From a virus (lineage: Duplodnaviria > Heunggongvirae > Uroviricota > Caudoviricetes), in the IMG/VR virus record IMGVR_UViG_2872158770_000006: a stretch of DNA of 39,775 nt. The stretch is one strand, 5' to 3'. The first letter of the stretch is position 1. Each line of letters starts with the position of its first letter. Positions 1 to 38,940 of this stretch are shown here, in pieces. The translations under genes and the position numbers were made by a program. Under the pieces are notes generated by a model. That model did not search any database. It was not told where the DNA came from and worked only from the letters and a program-made list of their open reading frames with translations.

Positions 1-981
1 CTAACGTCCTGCTTTTAACAATAACCAGATAAACACCGGCGCACCCAACGTTGCGGTGACCACGCCAATAGGCAGCTCTGCGGCAGCTAATGCCAGGCGC
101 GCTACAATATCGGCCAGCAGCACTGCGCTCGCCCCTGCCAGCGCGCAGCCGGGAAGTAATACGCGATGATCGGTTAAACCACACAACCGAAGAATATGTG
201 GGATCACCAGACCAATAAAGCCGATAGCACCCGCCAGCGCCACACTGACGCCAACCATCCAGCCGGTCGCTGCCACCAGCACATTGCGCCAGAACCACAG
301 GGGTAAACCCAGTTGCCGCGCCGAGATCTCGCCAAGTGCTAACATATTCATCGGCCTGGACTGACAACAGATCCACAACAACACGGGGATCAATGCCAGC
401 ATCAGCCAGCTTTGCCGCCAGTCTACGCCGCCAAAACCGCCCATCATCCAGTACATCAGCTGACGTAAATCAACAGAGGTGGAAAAGTAGATAGCCCACG
501 TCATTAGTGCGCTACAGATAATCCCTAATGCAACGCCAGCCAGCAATAACCGACTGGTCGAAAGATGACGACGGGCGAAACGTAAGAGTATTAAAGTGAT
601 GATAAGCGCGCCAGCAATCGCACACAGCCCTAGCGCCCAGTTGGGGAGTTGCCCTTGCCCAAGCAATACCGCGGCGATAAGCCCCACGCCTGCGCCGTTA
701 GAGACGCCAAGTAGTCCAGGTTCTGCCAGAGGATTTTCAAACAACGCCTGCATTACAGCGCCGGATATAGCCAGCGCCGCACCAACCAGCAATACAGCCA
801 GCGTACGTGGCAGGCGAATTTGCCAGACGAACAGTTCGCCACGAGGAGTAAACCAGTCACCTGGCGAAATCCATTGTTCACCGGCGCAAAGGCTTAAGAG
901 AAGCGCCAGCAGCATCAAAACTGACAGGCATAATAACCAGCGAATATTTTGTCGCTGTTGTTGGCGGGCAAGTGTCAGCAT
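1..981 (-). CDS. btuC: Vitamin B12 ABC transporter permease BtuC (FecCD family), complete, host gene
   Basis: 326-aa translation recognised as E. coli BtuC over its full length ([17 protein letters not shown]...); polytopic hydrophobic profile; stop codon at 1-3 on the minus strand. Confidence 0.9.
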
Positions 982-1040
982 GGTATCCGTTCTGCTGAAG
1001 TGTCATGGCGTTGATTTTACGGTGACTCTTCGACAGTGAA

Positions 1041-1064
1041 AAGAAAAAAGGCCGCAGAGCGGCC
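1041..1064 (-). terminator. Rho-independent terminator-like hairpin between the prophage int-side operon and btuC
   Basis: Minus-strand reading gives GGCCGCTCTGCGGCC (stem-loop, 1050-1064) followed by TTTTTTCTT (1041-1049). Confidence 0.5.
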
Positions 1065-1173
1065 ATAAACACAAACAAAAATCAATAAGTTAGGTAATTA
1101 TCAAAGACTTACAGACACACAAAAACACAGCCAACCACAACAAATAACAGAGATGTGGTCAATTTGTGGATCA

Positions 1174-1728
1174 TCAGCCAACAAATTTAGCAACAAATAC
1201 AGCAACCGCCGCTGTGAAAATGGTTGTGCACACTGGCACAATAATGCCACTCCAACGCCACTTCGTATTATCATCAACCTTGTCAAACCGCCGATTCATC
1301 TCATCCATAATCTTGTCAAAGCGTTTATCCATCGCTTCGGTAAGCTCACCCTTCAGGCTGTTAATGTCTGATTTGAGCTGCTCTTTCAGGTTAGCTGTAT
1401 CAGATTTAAGCTCACCTTTCAGATTCGCAATATCGCATTCAAGATCACCTTTCAGATGTGCTATGTCTGCTTTGAGTTCACCTTTCACCTCACCAACATC
1501 GGCTTTAGTTGAGAGGTTTGTAGTGCGTTCAGCAAGCGTCGCAAGGTCGTTTCTTGTTAGCGATAAATCACCTTCGAGCCGCTCAATTCGCCTTTCAAGT
1601 TTATCTGACATTCCGCCTCCACTACTGCCGCCATCGCCACCATGATAAAGCACATCACGCTCAGAATGCGACACACTACCTGCTGAATTACCGAAAAGAT
1701 TTCTTGCTACATTACCCATTATCACCAT
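1174..1728 (-). CDS. Tail-anchored coiled-coil membrane protein with five 11-residue repeats; function unknown, cargo gene
   Basis: ORF with Gly/Ser-rich N-terminus, about 100 aa of heptad/hendecad repeats (LKGDLECDIAN / LKGELKSDTAN / LKEQLKSDINS / LKGELTEAMDK) and a C-terminal TM helix (WSGIIVPVCTTIFTAAVAVFVAKFVG). Alternative starts at 1719 (ATG overlapping the upstream stop, ATGGGTAA) and 1611 (ATG with GGAGG 7 nt upstream). AT-rich codon usage. Confidence 0.55.
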   Translation of the reverse strand: MVIMGNVARNLFGNSAGSVSHSERDVLYHGGDGGSSGGGMSDKLERRIERLEGDLSLTRNDLATLAERTTNLSTKADVGEVKGELKADIAHLKGDLECDIANLKGELKSDTANLKEQLKSDINSLKGELTEAMDKRFDKIMDEMNRRFDKVDDNTKWRWSGIIVPVCTTIFTAAVAVFVAKFVG

Positions 1729-2212
1729 CCTGCGCTTTGTCTTTCTCCAACCACTTCAGCACCGCAGACGTACGATAAAGGCTCAGGTAACCACAATTCA
1801 GGCAATGCAGCGTGTAATAAGTTTTGCGCATATCAGGTATGCTCTTAACATCACCCAAAAAAGCATAAGATACATAATGCTTTATGTTCTCTTTAATTAA
1901 CTCACTCTGTTCCTCCAGGGGTAGATTGTTAAAATTTTCTGGTTTCTTATTTTTATCCCAGCAAAGATCCATACTTTCTGGAACAGATAATCGCGACGAT
2001 CCACATGAAGGGCAGACACTGGAGACCCCCTTCTCAGACAAGAAACGGAAGAAGATTTCTGGCGTAATCTCCATCAGCCGCTCTTTATGTTTTTTGACAC
2101 GACTCATCGACTTCTTATTGATTTCATCAGCTTCTTCTTTGCATTTATCTTCTATATATTTCGATAGTAAATAGTCATATAACTCTTTTTTTGTAGGTTT
2201 TTTTATTTCCAT
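1712..2212 (-). CDS. Zinc-ribbon protein (two CxxC pairs); function unknown, cargo gene, translationally coupled to int
   Basis: 166-aa ORF with CPSCG and CLNCG motifs; ATG at 2212 lies 2 nt after the int stop (2215-2217) with GGGAGG 8 nt upstream inside the int 3' end; very AT-rich. Confidence 0.6.
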   Translation of the reverse strand: MEIKKPTKKELYDYLLSKYIEDKCKEEADEINKKSMSRVKKHKERLMEITPEIFFRFLSEKGVSSVCPSCGSSRLSVPESMDLCWDKNKKPENFNNLPLEEQSELIKENIKHYVSYAFLGDVKSIPDMRKTYYTLHCLNCGYLSLYRTSAVLKWLEKDKAQDGDNG

Positions 2213-2214
2213 AG

Positions 2215-3192
2215 TTACATTCCTCCCAAGGGATTAAACCTCACCGCATCCTGCAAGTAATCCGGCGCAAGATGGGCATAAATCATCGTTGTCTGAATCT
2301 TTGCGTGCCCCAGAATTTTCTGGAGCGTCAGAATATTGCCGCCGTTCATCATGAAATGACTGGCGAAGGTGTGGCGCAGCGCATGAACAGCCTGGCCGTC
2401 AGGAACATCAGGTGCGACCGTTTTGATGACATCGCGAACCAATGAATAATCCAGCGTCGGAAACACCAGTTTCCCGCCCCGTTTTTTGATCTTTTCAAAC
2501 AGGCTTTCAGAAATAGGAACGGTACGGTTTTTGCTGTTCTTCGTTTTTGAAAAAGTGATTCGACAATGAAGAACACGGCGCTGCTCCAGTGCCGCTACCT
2601 CGCCCCATCGCGCCCCGGTCGACAGAAGGATTTCGACGGCCAGCCGTTCATCGGGATTTTCAGCCAGTGCATCCAGCAACTGAACACATTCAGACTTACT
2701 CAGATATCCCATTTCACGCTCGTTAACCTTCATTCCTTTAAGGCCTTGAACGGGGTTATCGTTAAGAAAATGGCCGGATGAGATGAGTGCGGTAAACATC
2801 GCGCTTAACGCCCCAATCTCTCGATTTATGGTGCTGGGCTGTATCCCCTGCTCTATCCTGGACACACGTAGCTCGGTGAGCATCGTTGTATTAAGTTTAT
2901 GCACGCACGGGTCATCCATTGCCTCACTCAAGCGCAGCAATTTAAGGCGCGTGTTATGCCCTGACTTCATTAGCTGGCCGTGGTATTTCCACCACAAGTC
3001 AATAAGCACTGACAGCGGACGGCGATCAATGGAGTTTCCTTTCCACTCATTGTTATGCTGTTGCGCCAGCACCCACCGCTCATATAAAACTGCATCCGAT
3101 TTCGTTTTAAATTTTTTGCGAATGCGTTTGCCTTTACGCCCCTCAGGACGCATGTCAAGAAGATACCCTCCCGGAATTGATTTTATGCTCAT
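2215..3192 (-). CDS. int: P2-type tyrosine integrase
   Basis: C-terminal catalytic region HALRHTFASHFMMNGGNILTLQKILGHAKIQTTMIYAHL (R-H-R-Y tyrosine recombinase signature); N-terminus MSIKSIPGGYLLDMRPEGRKGKRIRKKF aligns with the P2 Int N-terminus; the longer ORF to 3342 is probably a read-through artefact. Confidence 0.9.
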   Translation of the reverse strand: MSIKSIPGGYLLDMRPEGRKGKRIRKKFKTKSDAVLYERWVLAQQHNNEWKGNSIDRRPLSVLIDLWWKYHGQLMKSGHNTRLKLLRLSEAMDDPCVHKLNTTMLTELRVSRIEQGIQPSTINREIGALSAMFTALISSGHFLNDNPVQGLKGMKVNEREMGYLSKSECVQLLDALAENPDERLAVEILLSTGARWGEVAALEQRRVLHCRITFSKTKNSKNRTVPISESLFEKIKKRGGKLVFPTLDYSLVRDVIKTVAPDVPDGQAVHALRHTFASHFMMNGGNILTLQKILGHAKIQTTMIYAHLAPDYLQDAVRFNPLGGM

Positions 3193-3241
3193 TCGTGAAG
3201 CCCCAGCGTTACAAGACCACCATGCCCCCAGCGTTCCATGA

Positions 3242-3553
3242 TTAGCCGGGCTGTGTGCCAGTCTTGCGGGATTTTTGAGAAGACGATGTGTTTTCTGGCC
3301 CATCAGGGGAGAGAGAAGGACTGATCTGCCCAGCAGCCTCATTTGTTTCGTTACTCATCAACCACGTAGTGTATTTTTTAAATTCCGGGTGCATTGTGAT
3401 TTTCAGTAAAACCTCCGTTCCCACACCTCGAATACCAGTCTCGTATTGCTTAACCGTACCAACCGCAATACCTATTGAATCCGCGAACTTTGCCTGACTA
3501 AGCCCCTCAGATTCTCGAATTGCTTTTAGCTTCTTTGATATCTCTATTGACAT
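3242..3553 (-). CDS. C: P2 C-type immunity repressor (HTH)
   Basis: 103 aa from ATG at 3553; HTH segment LSQAKFADSIGIAVGTVKQYETG and C-terminal ...KYTTWLMSNE...GQISP...SQKSRKTG resemble P2 C; divergent from the cox-like gene. Confidence 0.8.
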   Translation of the reverse strand: MSIEISKKLKAIRESEGLSQAKFADSIGIAVGTVKQYETGIRGVGTEVLLKITMHPEFKKYTTWLMSNETNEAAGQISPSLSPDGPENTSSSQKSRKTGTQPG

Positions 3554-3648
3554 GGTGTGCACCTGAATACTATATTGGTTATCAGTTGAGTACCACTTGA
3601 CGCTACAAAGAGCCACAAATAGCACCAGATTGAATAGGTTATCACACC
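3554..3648. promoter_or_regulatory. Divergent C / early-operon control region (probable Pc/Pe promoters and operators)
   Basis: 95-bp intergenic region between divergent repressor and cox-like starts; repeated GGTTATCA motif (two copies) and AGCCACAAATAGCACC / ACCACTTGACGC repeats. Confidence 0.4.
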
Positions 3649-3927
3649 ATGGCAAAAGTCCTTAACACATACGAACAAGCGGATTTTGAGCGTTTGGCGG
3701 CGTTCTACCCATACCGTAATGAACATGGGCTACCGGTACTTGAAGAAAGCCTAGAGGATTATGCGAAACGCACAAATCAAAGCATTCTCGCTGTAAGAAG
3801 GCAGGCTGATAGATCGGTAATTCCCGTTACTCAAGAAGGAAGAAACACAAAACGCAAAGTAAATCTCTTCGCAATTTTCCTGAAAACCATCAGAAACGCA
3901 GAGAAATACGTGCAGATGACAAAATAA
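3649..3927 (+). CDS. cox: Cox/Apl-like excisionase / early regulator (putative)
   Basis: 92-aa ORF, first gene of the rightward early operon opposite the repressor, as in P2/186; no recognisable sequence identity claimed. Confidence 0.5.
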   Translation: MAKVLNTYEQADFERLAAFYPYRNEHGLPVLEESLEDYAKRTNQSILAVRRQADRSVIPVTQEGRNTKRKVNLFAIFLKTIRNAEKYVQMTK

Positions 3928-3941
3928 CGAGGTGTCATTTT

Positions 3942-4217
3942 ATGCTGAAGCAACGCCGTAATTTTTGTACCGGAACAGAACGCCACGCTAACCGTTTCAC
4001 TACCAGTGCATCACGCAGCAACATCCGCTACAGCCTGAGTGATACACACGCAACGCCGGATGGCTACCCAGTAAAACAAATCGGCGAGCACGCCTGGCTG
4101 ATTGAGAAAGCTGGAATCGTGATCCACAAATGCCCACGCAATCCGTTTACCGGAAACCGCATTTTTGCACTGAGCTGTGGCGACAATCAGTTCGGGCAGG
4201 ATTTCACATTGAGGTAG
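3942..4217 (+). pseudogene. Early-operon gene interrupted by the IS600-like insertion; 3' end resumes after the IS at about 5477-5551
   Basis: ORF with GAGGTG RBS runs into the IS left end; removing the IS and one copy of the 3-bp duplication restores an about 111-aa ORF ending ...FTLYEALRTVDRLLRGQSFIKQADL. Confidence 0.55.
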
Positions 4218-4273
4218 CCTGAGTTTAACGGACACTCCTTCCTGAAATAGAATGGCATCAGAAGGAGCTAATA

Positions 4274-4576
4274 ATGAGCAGAAAAACCCAACGTTACTCT
4301 AAAGAGTTCAAAGCCGAAGCTGTCAGAACGGTTCTTGAAAATCAACTTTCGATCAGTGAAGGCGCTTCCCGATTATCTCTTCCTGAAGGCACTTTAGGAC
4401 AATGGGTTACCGCCGCCAGAAAAGGGCTCGGTACTCCTGGTTCCCGCACGGTGGCTGAACTGGAATCTGAAATTCTGCAACTGCGTAAGGCGTTAAATGA
4501 AGCTCGCCTTGAGCGAGATATATTAAAAAAAGCAACAGCGTATTTTGCACAGGAGTCGCTGAAAAATACGCGTTAA
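4274..4576 (+). CDS. IS3-family transposase OrfA (HTH/leucine zipper)
   Basis: 100-aa MSRKTQRYSKEFKAEAVRTV... typical of IS3-family OrfA; A7G slippery run at 4525-4532. Confidence 0.85.
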   Translation: MSRKTQRYSKEFKAEAVRTVLENQLSISEGASRLSLPEGTLGQWVTAARKGLGTPGSRTVAELESEILQLRKALNEARLERDILKKATAYFAQESLKNTR

Positions 4577-4611
4577 TCGAACAATGGCGACAACAATTTC
4601 CCATTGAAGCG

Positions 4612-5430
4612 ATGTGTCAGGTATTTGGTGTATCCAGGAGCGGTTATTACAACTGGGTACAGCATGAACCCTCAGACAGAAAACAAAGTGATGAGCGGCT
4701 AAAACTGGAGATTAAGGTGGCACATATCCGCACTCGCGAAACATATGGAACCCGGCGGCTCCAGACGGAGCTGGCAGAGAATGGCATCATCGTTGGTCGT
4801 GACCGACTGGCACGTCTTCGTAAGGAGCTAAGGCTACGCTGTAAGCAGAAACGCAAGTTCAGAGCGACTACGAACTCGAACCACAATCTGCCAGTTGCGC
4901 CAAATCTGCTGAACCAGACGTTCGCTCCTACAGCACCAAATCAGGTCTGGGTGGCGGACCTGACGTATGTTGCCACACAGGAGGGATGGTTGTACCTCGC
5001 TGGCATCAAAGATGTTTATACGTGCGAAATTGTCGGCTACGCCATGGGAGAGCGCATGACAAAAGAGCTGACAGGTAAAGCCCTGTTTATGGCGCTCAGG
5101 AGCCAGCGCCCACCTGCCGGGCTAATCCACCACTCTGATCGAGGTTCACAGTACTGCGCATACGATTACCGGGTCATACAGGAGCAGTCTGGTCTGAAAA
5201 CATCAATGTCGCGTAAAGGTAACTGTTACGACAACGCTCCGATGGAAAGCTTCTGGGGAACGCTGAAAAATGAGAGCCTGAGCCACTATCGTTTTAATAA
5301 CCGGGATGAAGCCATCTCAGTAATACGGGAATACATTGAGATTTTCTACAATCGTCAGCGTCGTCACTCTCGTCTGGGGAATATCTCCCCGGCAGCCTTC
5401 AGGGAAAAATATCATCAGATGGCTGCTTAA
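4612..5430 (+). CDS. IS3-family transposase OrfB (DDE catalytic domain), -1 frame relative to OrfA
   Basis: 272-aa with DDE/rve integrase core motifs (…HSDRGSQY…, …YDNAPMESFWGTLK…); frame extends upstream of the first Met to the frameshift site. Confidence 0.85.
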   Translation: MCQVFGVSRSGYYNWVQHEPSDRKQSDERLKLEIKVAHIRTRETYGTRRLQTELAENGIIVGRDRLARLRKELRLRCKQKRKFRATTNSNHNLPVAPNLLNQTFAPTAPNQVWVADLTYVATQEGWLYLAGIKDVYTCEIVGYAMGERMTKELTGKALFMALRSQRPPAGLIHHSDRGSQYCAYDYRVIQEQSGLKTSMSRKGNCYDNAPMESFWGTLKNESLSHYRFNNRDEAISVIREYIEIFYNRQRRHSRLGNISPAAFREKYHQMAA

Positions 5431-35876: not shown

Positions 35877-36116
35877 GCAACTTAAATGTATTAACTCAGA
35901 ACGGATCAACACACTCACAACATAGAGTCAATATAGCTGCTCGCTTTGTTCCAGCAAGGATGCCTATTTCTAAGGAAAAACAGAGCAGAAACATATGGTG
36001 TTTTCCTACCTGACATCAGGGGTGGTAGACTGGCCCCCTGAATCTCCAGACAACCAGTATCACTTAAATAAGTGATAGTCTTAATACTAGTTTTTAGACT
36101 AGTCATTGGAGTACAG

Positions 36117-36482
36117 ATGATTGATGTCTTAGGGCCGGAGAAACGCAGACGGCGTACCACACAGGAAAAGATCGCAATTGTTCAGCAGAGCTTTGAACCG
36201 GGGATGACGGTCTCCCTCGTTGCCCGGCAACATGGTGTAGCAGCCAGCCAGTTATTTCTCTGGCGTAAGCAATACCAGGAAGGAAGTCTTACTGCTGTGG
36301 CCGCCGGAGAACAGGTTGTTCCTGCCTCTGAACTTGCTGCCGCCATGAAGCAGATTAAAGAACTCCAGCGCCTGCTCGGCAAGAAAACGATGGAAAATGA
36401 ACTCCTCAAAGAAGCCGTTGAATATGGACGGGCAAAAAAGTGGATAGCGCACGCGCCCTTATTGCCCGGGGATGGGGAGTAA
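36117..36482 (+). CDS. insC: IS2 OrfA (InsC)
   Basis: [41 protein letters not shown]... matches the remembered IS2 InsC. Confidence 0.9.
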
Positions 36483-37345
36483 GCTTAGTCAGCCGTTGTC
36501 TCCGGGTGTCGCGTGCGCAGTTGCACGTCATTCTCAGACGAACCGATGACTGGATGGATGGCCGCCGCAGTCGTCACACTGATGATACGGATGTGCTTCT
36601 CCGTATACACCATGTTATCGGAGAGCTGCCCACGTATGGTTATCGTCGGGTATGGGCGTTGCTTCGCAGACAGGCAGAACTTGATGGTATGCCTGCGATC
36701 AATGCCAAACGTGTTTACCGGATCATGCGCCAGAATGCGCTGTTGCTTGAGCGAAAACCTGCTGTACCGCCATCGAAACGGGCACATACAGGCAGAGTGG
36801 CCGTGAAAGAAAGCAATCAGCGATGGTGCTCTGACGGGTTCGAGTTCTGCTGTGATAACGGAGAGAGACTGCGTGTCACGTTCGCGCTGGACTGCTGTGA
36901 TCGTGAGGCACTGCACTGGGCGGTGACTACCGGCGGCTTCAACAGTGAAACAGTACAGGACGTCATGCTGGGAGCGGTGGAACGCCGCTTCGGCAACGAT
37001 CTTCCGTCGTCTCCAGTGGAGTGGCTGACGGATAATGGTTCATGCTACCGGGCTAATGAAACACGCCAGTTCGCCCGGATGTTGGGACTTGAACCGAAGA
37101 ACACGGCGGTGCGGAGTCCGGAGAGTAACGGAATAGCAGAGAGCTTCGTGAAAACGATAAAGCGTGACTACATCAGTATCATGCCCAAACCAGACGGGTT
37201 AACGGCAGCAAAGAACCTTGCAGAGGCGTTCGAGCATTATAACGAATGGCATCCGCATAGTGCGCTGGGTTATCGCTCGCCACGGGAATATCTGCGGCAG
37301 CGGGCTTGTAATGGGTTAAGTGATAACAGATGTCTGGAAATATAG
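36440..37345 (+). CDS. insD: IS2 transposase OrfB (InsD), DDE domain
   Basis: 301-aa ORF matching the remembered IS2 InsD; overlaps insC in the -1 frame. Confidence 0.9.
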
Positions 37346-37437: not shown

Positions 37438-38940
37438 ATGAACAAAAAGCTGTATTTATTCCCAGACTCAAACATTTTTCTACAATGCAAGGACTTGACG
37501 CAGGTAAATTTTTCCGAGATTACTGCTTGTGATGAAGTATGTATCATTATTACAAGGCCCATTCAGCAAGAGATTGACCGCCAGAAAGGGCAAGGTAATT
37601 CCCGCCTATCCAAAAAAGCAAGGAAGGCTGCTAGCCTATTTAATCAAGTAGTTGATTCAACTGACATGACTCTTGTTATTCGTGAACGCTCGCCGCGAGT
37701 TTTTCTTACCATGGATCTAAGCCTGAAACCATGTGAACAGTTATCTGAACAATTGGATTATCAGGAGGCCGACGATCGTTTTGTTGGTATTGCGGCAGGG
37801 TATTGCGCTGACGATCCAGATTCGGAGGTGGCAATCATTACCAATGATAGCGGTCCACGTTTTTCAGCAATAAAACATAATATAATCTGCTATAAAGTGC
37901 CTTCTTCATGGTTGCTTCCTGCTGAGCCAGATGAAAAGGATAAACAAATTAAATTGCTGGAAGCTAAGCTGAAGCAATTCACTCAGTCTATGCCCGATTT
38001 CAGCATTAAAGTAGCCGATGACGAGCAATTAAATATTGTACTTCCTTATTATACAGCTTTATCTGAATATGAAGTTGATAATTTGCTTTGTCAACTAACG
38101 GATGCATTCCCATTGGTTACAAACTTTGACAATGAACAAACTACCCCACAATCACTAGAAAAAATCATCAAGTCATTTAGTCAACAGGAGTATTTCCCTG
38201 TATCAGCAGATGATATTTCTCTTTATAAAGAAAAACATTATCCACTTTGGAAAAAGCAGTGTGAAGAAATACTGAAAAACTGTCATACTCATATTAATCC
38301 GAAGGCAATAAATTACCCGCTGTCGTTTTTATTACAAAACACAGGTTATACTATCGCTGAACGTGCTGTGGTAACATTTACAGCAAAAGGAGATTTTCGT
38401 CTGTGTGGATTTAATTGGGAGATAATGGAAGAGCTGACTGAAAGCAAAAGGATTGACCTACCTTCAGCCCCTACCGCCCCCAAAGGAAAATGGCGTAGTG
38501 TATGTGGCGTAACAGAAAGAATGCCTTACGCTGGGGGAGCTTTGGAAACACCGCTATCCAGTATAATTTCAAAAGAAATTGGTCCTTTGTTATCTCTTAC
38601 TCCAACAGAAAGGGATAAAAACGATTTTTATTATAAAGAAAAGAGAAATGAGCCAGTTCAAGTTGTATCGCTGGAATGCGAAGAGTGGCGTCATCAAGTC
38701 AAAGAAGAAATATTCCCGTTGTTCGTATATACAGCCAACAAACCAAAGAAAGTGAATGGTGCAATTGAGGTGAGAGTTGATGCAAATAACCTTACCAATC
38801 CGGTCATTAAAACATTTAAATTAAAAATAACTATAGAAGAACATAGTGCATTTTCAACCATAACAGAAATGGTGCAGACATACATTCAAGAGCAGAAGAA
38901 AAGACAGAAAAGTTCTATTAGCGCACAAATCAAAACATGA
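37438..38940 (+). CDS. AT-rich 500-aa cargo protein with predicted N-terminal PIN-like nuclease domain and uncharacterised C-terminal region
   Basis: ATG with GAGG RBS; N-terminus LYLFPDSNIFL…(V)CIIITRPIQQEIDRQ…DDRFVGIAAGY…AIITNDSG gives the spacing of four acidic residues (D10, E45, D112/113, D137) typical of PIN-fold nucleases; markedly lower GC than flanking tail genes by eye. Confidence 0.6.
   Translation: MNKKLYLFPDSNIFLQCKDLTQVNFSEITACDEVCIIITRPIQQEIDRQKGQGNSRLSKKARKAASLFNQVVDSTDMTLVIRERSPRVFLTMDLSLKPCEQLSEQLDYQEADDRFVGIAAGYCADDPDSEVAIITNDSGPRFSAIKHNIICYKVPSSWLLPAEPDEKDKQIKLLEAKLKQFTQSMPDFSIKVADDEQLNIVLPYYTALSEYEVDNLLCQLTDAFPLVTNFDNEQTTPQSLEKIIKSFSQQEYFPVSADDISLYKEKHYPLWKKQCEEILKNCHTHINPKAINYPLSFLLQNTGYTIAERAVVTFTAKGDFRLCGFNWEIMEELTESKRIDLPSAPTAPKGKWRSVCGVTERMPYAGGALETPLSSIISKEIGPLLSLTPTERDKNDFYYKEKRNEPVQVVSLECEEWRHQVKEEIFPLFVYTANKPKKVNGAIEVRVDANNLTNPVIKTFKLKITIEEHSAFSTITEMVQTYIQEQKKRQKSSISAQIKT

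What the first reader, a model, noticed from the sequence alone, without database searches (positions are those of the whole stretch)
1174..2212. Two-gene AT-rich module translationally coupled to the integrase: zinc-ribbon protein plus repeat-rich tail-anchored coiled-coil protein
The 166-aa zinc-ribbon ORF starts 2 nt after the int stop, with its RBS inside int, and the following coiled-coil/TM protein overlaps it. The int-proximal end of P2-like prophages normally abuts the attachment site, so these are extra cargo expressed with int in the lysogen. The membrane protein carries five near-perfect 11-residue repeats and a C-terminal anchor, an architecture seen in XhlA-like membrane-disrupting or superinfection-exclusion proteins. 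The pairing with a small Zn-ribbon protein looks like an undescribed two-component module.
Basis: partly seen in the sequence, partly recalled or inferred. Interest (0 to 1): 0.7.

Follow-up and report, generated by a model that had tools for sequence, protein, structure and literature searches.

The report
Zinc-ribbon plus membrane-anchor prophage cassette
Two small, uncharacterised genes tucked between the integrase and the attachment site of a P2-like E. coli prophage form a mobile, fast-evolving cassette (a soluble zinc-binding protein plus a membrane-anchored coiled-coil protein) that sits in the lysogeny operons of several kinds of temperate phage and is most plausibly a new phage-exclusion device, though no function has been tested.

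Summary
Window 1712-2212(-) encodes a 166-aa four-cysteine Zn-ribbon protein that starts 2 nt after the integrase stop. Window 1174-1719(-) encodes a 181-aa coiled-coil protein with a C-terminal membrane helix, and its start overlaps the Zn-ribbon stop by 8 nt.

Both genes lie inside a P2-like prophage inserted between btuC and ihfA. They sit between int and the Int arm-type binding repeats.

The pair is a conserved cassette. 16 of 17 Zn-ribbon loci examined have a homologous coiled-coil/TM gene tightly coupled downstream. These loci are in P2-like, 186-like, lambdoid (directly after the cI-type repressor) and Mu-like phages.

Both genes are under purifying selection (pN/pS 0.08-0.24). Alleles are nevertheless swapped as blocks: the Zn-ribbon gene plus the first ~33 codons of the partner are replaced in an otherwise ~99% identical context. 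The stalk varies in 11-residue steps.

No match was found in PADLOC, PDB or the literature, and both proteins fall in PHROGs of unknown function. The XhlA link is not supported. A sub-threshold DUF1640/CCDC90 relationship, including its beta-layer motif, is supported.

Best guess: a lysogen-expressed two-component exclusion or abortive-infection module. This is inferred, not shown.

The parts
1040..1064 (.). attL junction: last host-identical bases, including the ihfA terminator hairpin (1050-1064) that also lies downstream of the cassette on the minus strand
   Evidence: Identity to K-12 ends at 1064. Terminator-like hairpin GGCCGCTCTGCGGCC followed by a T-run on the minus strand. A 25-nt duplication is reported for a P2-like prophage at btuC/ihfA in strain SE11 (PMC2608844). 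The exact core limits are inferred.
1065..1173 (.). Phage att arm (32% GC) with Int arm-type direct repeats ATGTGGTCAATTTGTGGATCA at 1152-1174
   Evidence: Nearly identical to the annotated P2 P-arm Int site ATGTGGTCAATGTGTGGAC. Window 1100-1174 is conserved in 303 of 5426 E. coli genomes whatever cargo follows.
1174..1719 (-). CC-TM gene, 181 aa: disordered N-terminal extension (res 1-26), Gly/Asp-rich linker (27-36), one long helix (38-147) and a C-terminal TM helix (~155-178). Alternative starts at 1728 and 1611.
   Evidence: phrog_9415 E=6.5e-15; Pfam CCDC90-like 24.1 bits against a cut-off of 33.5.
1612..1719 (-). N-terminal extension plus Gly-rich linker of CC (res 1-36). It is swapped together with the ZnR gene. 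An internal GGAGG-N5-ATG gives the possible second start at 1611.
   Evidence: The block that diverges from L008 ends at ~1621. AF2 pLDDT is below 50 for res 1-34. A G/D-rich run is present in 15 of 15 partners.
1498..1515 (-). Beta-layer-like motif LSTKAD (res 69-74)
   Evidence: Matches the DUF1640 consensus [aliphatic]-A-T-K-[polar]-[DE] (PMC4786415). Present in 14 of 15 partners.
1333..1497 (-). Five hendecad (11-residue) repeats, res 75-129; copy number varies between alleles
   Evidence: TRF period 33 at 1383-1487. Homologue lengths are 192/181/170/159/148 aa. Hydrophobic residues fall at positions 1, 4 and 8.
1186..1257 (-). C-terminal transmembrane helix (tail anchor), preceded by KWRW
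   Evidence: KD19 maximum of 2.43 starting at residue 159. AF2 helix 150-180.
1712..2212 (-). ZnR gene, 166 aa: N-terminal helix 8-46, then CxxC knuckles at C67/C70 (2003-2014) and C137/C140 (1793-1804)
   Evidence: Four Cys and W154 are invariant in 56 diverse members. phrog_4293 E=8e-23. AF2 pLDDT 82. 91 representatives at 50% identity among 1.84 billion proteins.
2213..2227 (-). 2-nt spacer and Shine-Dalgarno GGGAGGA (2221-2227) inside the last int codons
   Evidence: Read directly from the sequence. The same tight int-ZnR junction occurs in L003, L008, L012, L013 and L015.
2215..3192 (-). Tyrosine integrase (325 aa by the PGAP start)
   Evidence: Pfam Int_N and Phage_integrase; annotation of the identical region in RM8426.
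3242..3553 (-). C-type immunity repressor (HTH), first gene of the leftward lysogeny operon
   Evidence: Pfam HTH_3; phrog_147.
1621..2250 (-). Allele-exchange block: 55-88% identity to L008, flanked by ~97-100% identity on both sides
   Evidence: Sliding-window comparison. Protein identities to L008: Int 99, C 95, CC 92, ZnR 56%.

Best explanation
Shown. This is an autonomous two-gene accessory cassette carried by temperate phages. It encodes a soluble, mostly acidic Zn-ribbon protein with four invariant cysteines, translationally coupled to a tail-anchored inner-membrane protein. The membrane protein consists of a ~35-residue disordered N-terminal peptide, a Gly/Asp linker, a ~110-residue DUF1640-like coiled-coil stalk with a beta-layer motif and a variable number of hendecads, and a C-terminal TM helix.

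In this prophage the cassette forms the last two genes of the leftward C-int unit. It lies between int and the Int arm-binding repeats, and the only terminator-like hairpin downstream is the ihfA terminator at the att core.

Inferred. The cassette is transcribed from the lysogenic promoter in the lysogen. ZnR docks on the N-terminal peptide of its cognate CC partner and serves as the rapidly diversifying specificity or sensor subunit. The membrane-anchored stalk, probably a trimer, is the constant effector or anchor.

Together they would exclude other phages. Either the cassette responds to an incoming phage component by compromising the inner membrane (abortive infection, in the manner of RexA/RexB), or it blocks a membrane-proximal step of infection.
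For: Pairing:
- A ZnR is followed by a homologous CC-TM gene, overlapping or abutting it, in 16 of 17 loci. These come from E. coli, Salmonella, Citrobacter, Klebsiella, Providencia, Photorhabdus-like organisms and metagenomes.

Position in lysogeny operons or moron slots:
- After int in P2-like and 186-like phages.
- Directly after an S24 cI-type repressor in lambdoid phages, the slot where lambda carries rexAB (own knowledge).
- Between the tape-measure and DNA_circ_N genes in a Mu-like phage.

Modularity:
- The short CC-TM family (540 clusters) also pairs with an unrelated upstream partner (phrog_5881/5893), again directly after cI-type repressors.

Evolution:
- Purifying selection within allele classes, with block replacement between them. 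ZnR is 56% identical where Int is 99% and CC 92%.
- The exchange boundary falls at the Gly-rich linker.
- 11-aa length steps in the stalk.
- AT-rich relative to the phage.

ZnR allele does not track the C or Int allele, which argues against a role with the phage's own repressor or integrase.

ZnR is acidic in 13 of 15 members, which favours protein binding over nucleic-acid binding.

No sigma-70-like promoter was found on the minus strand between C and the cassette.
Against: - No functional data of any kind exist. There are no PADLOC hits beyond coiled-coil noise and no homology to RexA/B or any validated system.
- Other genes found in the same slot also have no known defence domain, so the slot is not demonstrably a defence hotspot.
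- Expression in the lysogen is inferred from gene order only.
- The ZnR-CC contact is inferred from coupling and co-inheritance, which physical linkage alone could produce.
- Fast evolution and an accessory position also fit anti-defence, addiction or host-directed roles.
Confidence: 0.42

Rival explanations
1. Addiction or toxin-antitoxin-like stabiliser. The tail-anchored protein is a membrane toxin, held in check by the co-translated Zn-ribbon protein. Its role would be to retain the prophage rather than to defend against other phages.
For: The pair combines a small membrane protein with a tightly coupled soluble partner. The same prophage carries a Hok/Gef gene at its other end. The weak PHROG holin and hemolysin similarities (E 0.004-0.02) hint at membrane activity.
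Against: The gene order (soluble partner first, membrane protein second, 8-nt overlap) and a long cytoplasmic stalk of variable length are not typical of small membrane toxins. No TA-family hit was found. Block exchange of the soluble partner together with only the N-terminal peptide suggests specificity switching rather than simple neutralisation.
Confidence: 0.17
2. A function in the phage's own life cycle, for example control of the lysis-lysogeny decision, induction, excision, or membrane tethering of phage DNA or replication. ZnR would act as a membrane-sequestered regulator.
For: The cassette is conserved next to int or the repressor in several phage types. Zn-ribbon regulators exist in P2-like phages, Ogr/Delta being an example (own knowledge; an Ogr_Delta gene is seen in L006).
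Against: The ZnR allele is uncoupled from the C and Int alleles: C 95% and Int 99% with ZnR 56%, and conversely C 60% with ZnR 97%. About half of the prophages with the same int/att lineage carry an unrelated single gene instead, and P2 itself has nothing there, so the cassette is dispensable. ZnR proteins are mostly acidic. In a Mu-like phage the cassette sits inside the tail module.
Confidence: 0.15
3. Host-directed lysogenic conversion, such as envelope, stress or virulence modulation, or an anti-defence function. In either case the target would not be competing phages.
For: The position is accessory and AT-rich, and expression in the lysogen is likely. The cassette is present in STEC, EPEC and Salmonella prophages.
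Against: No similarity to a virulence or stress family was found. Extreme allele turnover within a single host species is more typical of phage-phage conflict. An anti-defence gene would be expected in early lytic operons rather than after the repressor or integrase.
Confidence: 0.12
4. An XhlA-type lysis accessory (holin-associated) pair.
For: The architecture is similar: a short coiled coil plus a C-terminal TM helix. A few short family members are named 'Hemolysin XhlA' in UniRef. phrog_689 (holin) scores E=0.004 and phrog_1193 (hemolysin) E=0.023.
Against: Pfam XhlA (PF10779) gave no hit at E<=1 for the window protein and none at E<=0.1 for five further CC members. Of seven short members scanned at E<=1, one scored 13.7 bits against a cut-off of 34.7. 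The prophage has its own complete P2-type lysis cassette elsewhere: holin, M15 peptidase, LysB/LysC. The cassette lies in lysogeny operons, oriented with int or cI.
Confidence: 0.04

Closest known systems
DUF1640 / CCDC90-like family (PF07798; MCUR1, CCDC90B and prokaryotic homologues)
   Same: Both have a C-terminal TM anchor and a long coiled-coil stalk that opens with the beta-layer motif (LSTKAD here; consensus [aliphatic]-A-T-K-[polar]-[DE], PMC4786415). The hendecad region aligns with bona fide CCDC90-annotated bacterial proteins (P0057, P0060). NCBI names close homologues DUF1640 or CCDC90 family.
   Different: The Pfam score of the window protein is below the curated cut-off (24.1 against 33.5 bits). 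There is no folded N-terminal head domain, only a disordered peptide plus a Gly-rich linker. The protein is obligately paired with a small upstream partner and is carried by phages. The function of the prokaryotic family is itself unknown.
Lambda RexA/RexB, and by analogy other prophage two-component exclusion pairs such as mycobacteriophage Butters gp30/gp31 (own knowledge)
   Same: A soluble protein plus a membrane protein, encoded in the immunity (lysogenic) transcription unit. In lambdoid relatives the cassette sits directly downstream of the cI-type repressor.
   Different: There is no sequence or fold similarity. RexB is polytopic (own knowledge), whereas this protein has a single C-terminal helix and a ~165 A cytoplasmic stalk. 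No phenotype is known for this cassette.
XhlA (PF10779), PBSX lysis-associated membrane protein
   Same: A small coiled-coil protein with a C-terminal TM segment.
   Different: There is no significant profile match. The cassette is not in a lysis cassette, and XhlA has no Zn-ribbon partner.
P2 lysogenic-conversion genes old, tin and Z/fun, and the P2/P4 defence hotspots (Rousset et al. 2022, PMC9122126)
   Same: Variable accessory cargo in P2-like prophages that is expected to be expressed in lysogens. Polymorphic content sits between conserved flanks.
   Different: The locus is different: int to att-arm here, not the old/tin hotspot. The paper's text mentions an integrase-adjacent P2-type hotspot only for Vibrio K139-like phages, between cI and int. 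The content here is not a mix of known systems but mostly one cassette type in very divergent alleles, plus one unrelated gene.
Generic Zn-ribbon proteins (TFIIS-type, Lar-like 'restriction alleviation' proteins)
   Same: Two CxxC knuckles. BFVD Foldseek returns only such proteins, weakly (E>=7e-3).

Membership tests
DUF1640 / CCDC90-like (PF07798) | Pfam HMM score at or above the gathering threshold (33.5 bits) | tested here: not met
   24.1 bits, E=3.7e-5. Several close homologues carry precomputed PF07798 hits and NCBI DUF1640/CCDC90 names, so the relationship is likely real but marginal.
DUF1640 / CCDC90-like (PF07798) | Beta-layer motif [aliphatic]-A-T-K-[polar]-[DE] at the start of the C-terminal stalk | tested here: met
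   LSTKAD at residues 69-74. A motif of this form is present in 14 of 15 paired partners.
DUF1640 / CCDC90-like (PF07798) | C-terminal transmembrane segment | tested here: met
   The KD19 maximum of 2.0-2.7 falls at the extreme C-terminus in 14 of 15 partners. AF2 helix 150-180.
DUF1640 / CCDC90-like (PF07798) | Folded N-terminal head domain, as in MCUR1/CCDC90B (own knowledge) | tested here: not met
   Residues 1-34 have pLDDT below 50 and are followed by a Gly/Asp-rich linker.
DUF1640 / CCDC90-like (PF07798) | Trimeric coiled coil | not testable with these tools
   Only monomer prediction is available. A trimer is inferred from the beta-layer motif.
XhlA (PF10779) | Significant match to the XhlA profile | tested here: not met
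   No hit at E<=1 for the window protein and none at E<=0.1 for five other CC members. One of seven short members scanned at E<=1 scored 13.7 bits against a cut-off of 34.7.
XhlA (PF10779) | Encoded in a lysis cassette next to holin and endolysin genes | tested here: not met
   The cassette lies after int or cI. The prophage's holin, endolysin and spanin genes are about 17 kb away.
Zn-ribbon fold | Two CxxC knuckles conserved across the family | tested here: met
   C67, C70, C137 and C140 are invariant in 56 sequences sharing 20-58% identity. The AF2 model places short strands at both knuckles. Zinc binding itself was not tested.
Known anti-phage defence systems (PADLOC-DB v2.0.0) | Profile match to a component of a known or candidate system | tested here: not met
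   Only low-scoring coiled-coil matches (LmuB, ZorA, 19-21 bits) for CC and nothing credible for ZnR. No hit for the short CC forms or the alternative partners.
RexAB-type lysogen-expressed exclusion pair (functional analogy only) | Encoded in the immunity operon, co-oriented with and directly downstream of the repressor or int | tested here: met
   C-int-ZnR-CC in P2-like phages and cI-ZnR-CC in lambdoid contigs. Transcription was not measured.
RexAB-type lysogen-expressed exclusion pair (functional analogy only) | Excludes superinfecting phages | not testable with these tools
   Requires phage-challenge experiments.

The most novel reading that the evidence does not exclude
The cassette would represent a widespread, undescribed class of prophage immunity device built on a membrane-tethered 'mast'. 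A trimeric, tail-anchored hendecad stalk of evolvable length carries, on a disordered N-terminal docking peptide, an exchangeable soluble sensor: the Zn-ribbon protein, or in other phages the phrog_5881/5893 protein. Recognition of an invading phage component would be transmitted to the membrane anchor to abort or block infection. Specificity would be re-programmed by swapping the sensor together with its docking peptide as one recombination unit.
Probability: 0.25. Interest if true: 0.75.

Novelty: new variant of a known kind. Interest (0 to 1): 0.55.

Why it matters
If it is functional in phage exclusion, this would add a compact (about 1 kb) two-gene system that current defence catalogues miss. 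It is common in enterobacterial P2-like and lambdoid prophages: about 2% of complete E. coli genomes carry it at the btuC site alone.

The architecture is unusually legible. There is a hypervariable soluble subunit, a docking peptide, a length-variable coiled-coil stalk and a tail anchor. That makes sensor-swap and stalk-length experiments straightforward.

It also defines the int-to-arm-site interval of this P2-like lineage as a polymorphic cargo slot. And it gives the first genomic-context clue to the function of bacterial DUF1640/CCDC90-like proteins.

Tried and rejected
Structure and profile searches that found nothing:
- Pfam, NCBIfam, PHROGs and PADLOC scans of both proteins and 20+ relatives gave only unknown-function PHROGs and sub-threshold hits.
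- PDB sequence searches found no relatives.
- tblastn of ZnR against 50,697 GenBank phage records gave no match.
- An Rfam scan of 900-4300 found nothing above threshold.

Jobs that could not be run:
- The afdb50 library was unavailable.

Literature searches for DUF1640 plus phage, the two WP accessions, P2-like int-adjacent exclusion genes, and zinc ribbon plus tail-anchored plus prophage returned nothing on this cassette.

Ideas considered and rejected:
- Host DNA outside the prophage.
- Spurious ORFs.
- A recombination-directionality or anti-repressor role, because ZnR does not co-vary with Int or C.
- An XhlA-type lysis role.
Full report
**Setting.** The window begins with btuC (1-981, minus strand). 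Bases 900-3400 are 100% identical to E. coli O26 RM8426 and three other genomes. Alignment with K-12 shows that host identity ends at window 1064, inside the ihfA terminator hairpin. Everything to the right of that point is a P2-like prophage. The identical region in RM8426 is annotated with integrase, C-type repressor, cox-like gene, gpA, portal, terminase, capsid, lysis and tail genes. A P2-like prophage between btuC and ihfA with a 25-nt duplication was already recorded in strain SE11 (PMC2608844).

**Checking the observation.**
- The int stop is at 2215-2217 and the 166-aa ORF starts at 2212, with GGGAGGA at 2221-2227 inside int.
- The second ORF overlaps the first by 17 nt from its first ATG (1728). 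The ATG at 1719 gives an 8-nt overlap (ATGGGTAA).
- Equivalent 8-nt overlaps, or TAAnATG and TAAGTG junctions, occur in every homologous locus I read, so 1719 is the likely start.
- PGAP calls a 145-aa product from 1611, behind an internal GGAGG. However, the 36 upstream codons stay open in 15 of 15 partners. They carry conserved elements (an RD-type motif and a Gly/Asp run), show mostly third-position variation, and have an in-frame GGD expansion in one allele. A dual start remains possible.
- TRF detects a 33-nt period. The five protein hendecads share only 3-8 of 11 residues, so 'near-perfect' is too strong.
- GC rises from 38.5% (ZnR) and 45.2% (CC) to 49.4% (int) and 53% (prophage).
- pN/pS against close alleles is 0.03-0.08 for int, 0.08-0.19 for ZnR and 0.11-0.24 for CC. 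Both are genuine genes under purifying selection.

**Where the cassette sits relative to att.** In P2 the attP core is ~80 bp from the int stop, and one Int arm site overlaps the end of int. Here the sequence ATGTGGTCAATTTGTGGATCA at 1152-1174, abutting the CC stop codon, almost duplicates the annotated P2 P-arm Int site ATGTGGTCAATGTGTGGAC. The two genes are therefore inserted between int and the arm-type sites. The only terminator-like hairpin downstream of them is the ihfA terminator at 1050-1064. No sigma-70-like promoter was found on the minus strand between C and the cassette. Co-transcription with C and int is an inference from these points.

**The slot is polymorphic.** 303 of 5426 complete E. 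coli genomes carry the att arm (window 1100-1174) next to btuC. Between the arm and int they hold:

| Content of the slot | Genomes |
|---|---|
| Window-type cassette | 23 |
| 132-aa short ZnR plus CC | 14 |
| Third, very divergent ZnR (120 aa) plus CC (145 aa) | 86 |
| Unrelated single 131-aa gene (phrog_14142) | 158 |

.

**The pair is a unit.**
- ZnR homologues are few and always small, standalone proteins. There are 18 clusters by word-indexed search and 91 representatives at 50% identity among 1.84 billion proteins.
- Four cysteines and one tryptophan are invariant across 56 diverse members.
- In 16 of 17 ZnR loci the next gene is a homologous CC-TM protein with the same layout: variable N-terminal peptide, Gly/Asp run, an LE-R-x-x-LE helix start, a beta-layer-like xATKxD motif, and a C-terminal TM helix.
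- The contexts differ. They include P2-like int-att junctions in five genera, a 186-like int-att junction, and a lambdoid (Rac-like) contig in which the cassette directly follows the S24 cI-type repressor. They also include a Mu-like tail module, between the tape-measure and DNA_circ_N genes.
- The one exception has a small two-TM protein downstream instead.
- Starting from the other side, the short CC-TM family is large (540 clusters). In seven of eight viral contigs it pairs with a different ~140-aa upstream protein (phrog_5881/5893), in six of them again directly after a cI-type or HTH repressor gene.
- The membrane protein is therefore the constant element and the soluble upstream partner is exchangeable.

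**Evolutionary pattern.** Against locus L008 the flanks are ~97-100% identical, but a block from the last ~35 nt of int to window ~1621 drops to 55-88%. That block contains the whole ZnR gene (56% protein identity) and the first ~33 codons of CC, and it ends exactly at the Gly-rich linker.

Other loci recombine the parts differently. Citrobacter L012 has ZnR at 97% identity, a different TM flavour and more hendecads. CC lengths fall in 11-residue steps: 192, 181, 170, 159 and 148 aa.

The ZnR allele does not track the C or Int allele. This argues against a role as anti-repressor or recombination-directionality factor.

**Structure.**
- AF2 models ZnR with pLDDT 82: helix 8-46, helix 51-60, short strands around both knuckles, and a C-terminal helix.
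- 13 of 15 ZnR proteins are acidic, which favours protein binding over nucleic-acid binding.
- AF2 models CC as disordered for residues 1-34, one helix 38-147, and a terminal helix 150-180.
- The hendecads place hydrophobic residues at positions 1, 4 and 8, which is the a/d/h pattern of hendecad coiled coils (established knowledge).
- LSTKAD at residues 69-74 fits the beta-layer motif described for DUF1640 membrane proteins (PMC4786415). This implies a trimer by analogy.

**What it is not.**
- It is not host DNA and it is not noise.
- It is not a known P2 gene pair.
- It is not XhlA by any profile test, and it is not in a lysis cassette.
- It is not any PADLOC system.
- The P2 and P4 hotspots of Rousset et al. 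are different loci (plus own knowledge that the P2 hotspot holds old/tin).
- I found no paper on the cassette.

**Most likely mechanism (inferred).** The evidence points to a lysogen-expressed two-component exclusion or abortive-infection device:
- The cassette sits in immunity operons, including the slot after cI where lambda carries rexAB.
- It combines a soluble subunit with a membrane subunit.
- The soluble subunit is exchangeable.
- Alleles are swapped as blocks while purifying selection acts within each allele class.

In this model ZnR docks on the disordered N-terminal peptide of its cognate stalk protein and supplies specificity. The tail-anchored stalk is the effector or anchor. I put this at about 0.4. 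The rivals are an addiction or TA-like module, a role in the phage's own life cycle, host-directed conversion or anti-defence, and an XhlA-type lysis role. Confidences for these are given in the rivals section.

**Verdict.** It extends well beyond this window. The XhlA analogy and 'near-perfect repeats' do not hold, and function remains untested. Interest is moderate to good: this is a well-delimited, experimentally tractable candidate, but it is one among many uncharacterised prophage morons.

Noticed in passing
L050, L052-L057 (viral contigs), e.g. L054 3489-4228: In lambdoid contigs the short CC-TM protein (phrog_6324) is paired with a different ~136-152-aa upstream protein (phrog_5881/5893, no Cys motif). 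In six of the seven contigs this pair directly follows a cI-type or HTH repressor gene. It looks like a sister cassette with an alternative soluble partner.
   Followed up: partly
L017 4072-4467 (E. coli O104:H4) and 158 E. coli genomes: The same int-to-att-arm slot holds an unrelated single 131-aa gene (phrog_14142, no Pfam or PADLOC hit) in about half of the btuC-site P2-like prophages.
   Followed up: partly
window 4274-5430 and ~36070-37345: Two IS elements lie inside the prophage: an IS3-family element after the cox-like gene, and an IS2-like element (InsC/InsD-type ORFs) next to gpD/ogr. RM8426, which is identical over 900-3400, has no annotated transposase in its early region. This prophage copy may therefore be defective.
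   Followed up: partly
window 37438-38940 (+) and downstream: A 500-aa PIN_4-domain protein, and according to matching genomes a Hok/Gef gene, lie beyond ogr at the other prophage end. This is further uncharacterised cargo with no PADLOC hit.
   Followed up: partly
window 982-1105 (-): A sub-threshold Rfam match to the enterobacterial sRNA STnc540 (22 bits against 38) spans the btuC-ihfA intergenic region and the attL junction. The prophage may therefore split an ihfA 3'-UTR/terminator-associated RNA element.
   Followed up: no
window 1611-1622 (-), and the equivalent position in all 15 partners: An internal GGAGG-like sequence a few nt before a conserved Met, encoded by the Gly-rich linker, could give a second, shorter isoform of the membrane protein. 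This is the form PGAP annotates.
   Followed up: partly
L001 27988-29263 (RM8426 prophage): ParM-like and partition/stability genes lie between the replication gene A and the portal gene, the region where P2 carries old/tin. I did not check whether they are present in the window copy.
   Followed up: no
literature (PMC13100340): A 2026 survey lists the BtuC permease as an auxiliary metabolic gene of P2-like viruses. Because this P2-like lineage integrates immediately next to btuC, that call may be a prophage-boundary artefact. This is inference only.
   Followed up: no
L044 5056-6840; L045 4886-6075: In 186-like prophages the ZnR-CC cassette is followed by additional variable cargo before the host gene: a 594-aa protein in one, and 160-aa plus 210-aa proteins in the other, with one weak PDC-S64 PADLOC hit. 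This suggests the int-att interval can stack several accessory modules.
   Followed up: partly
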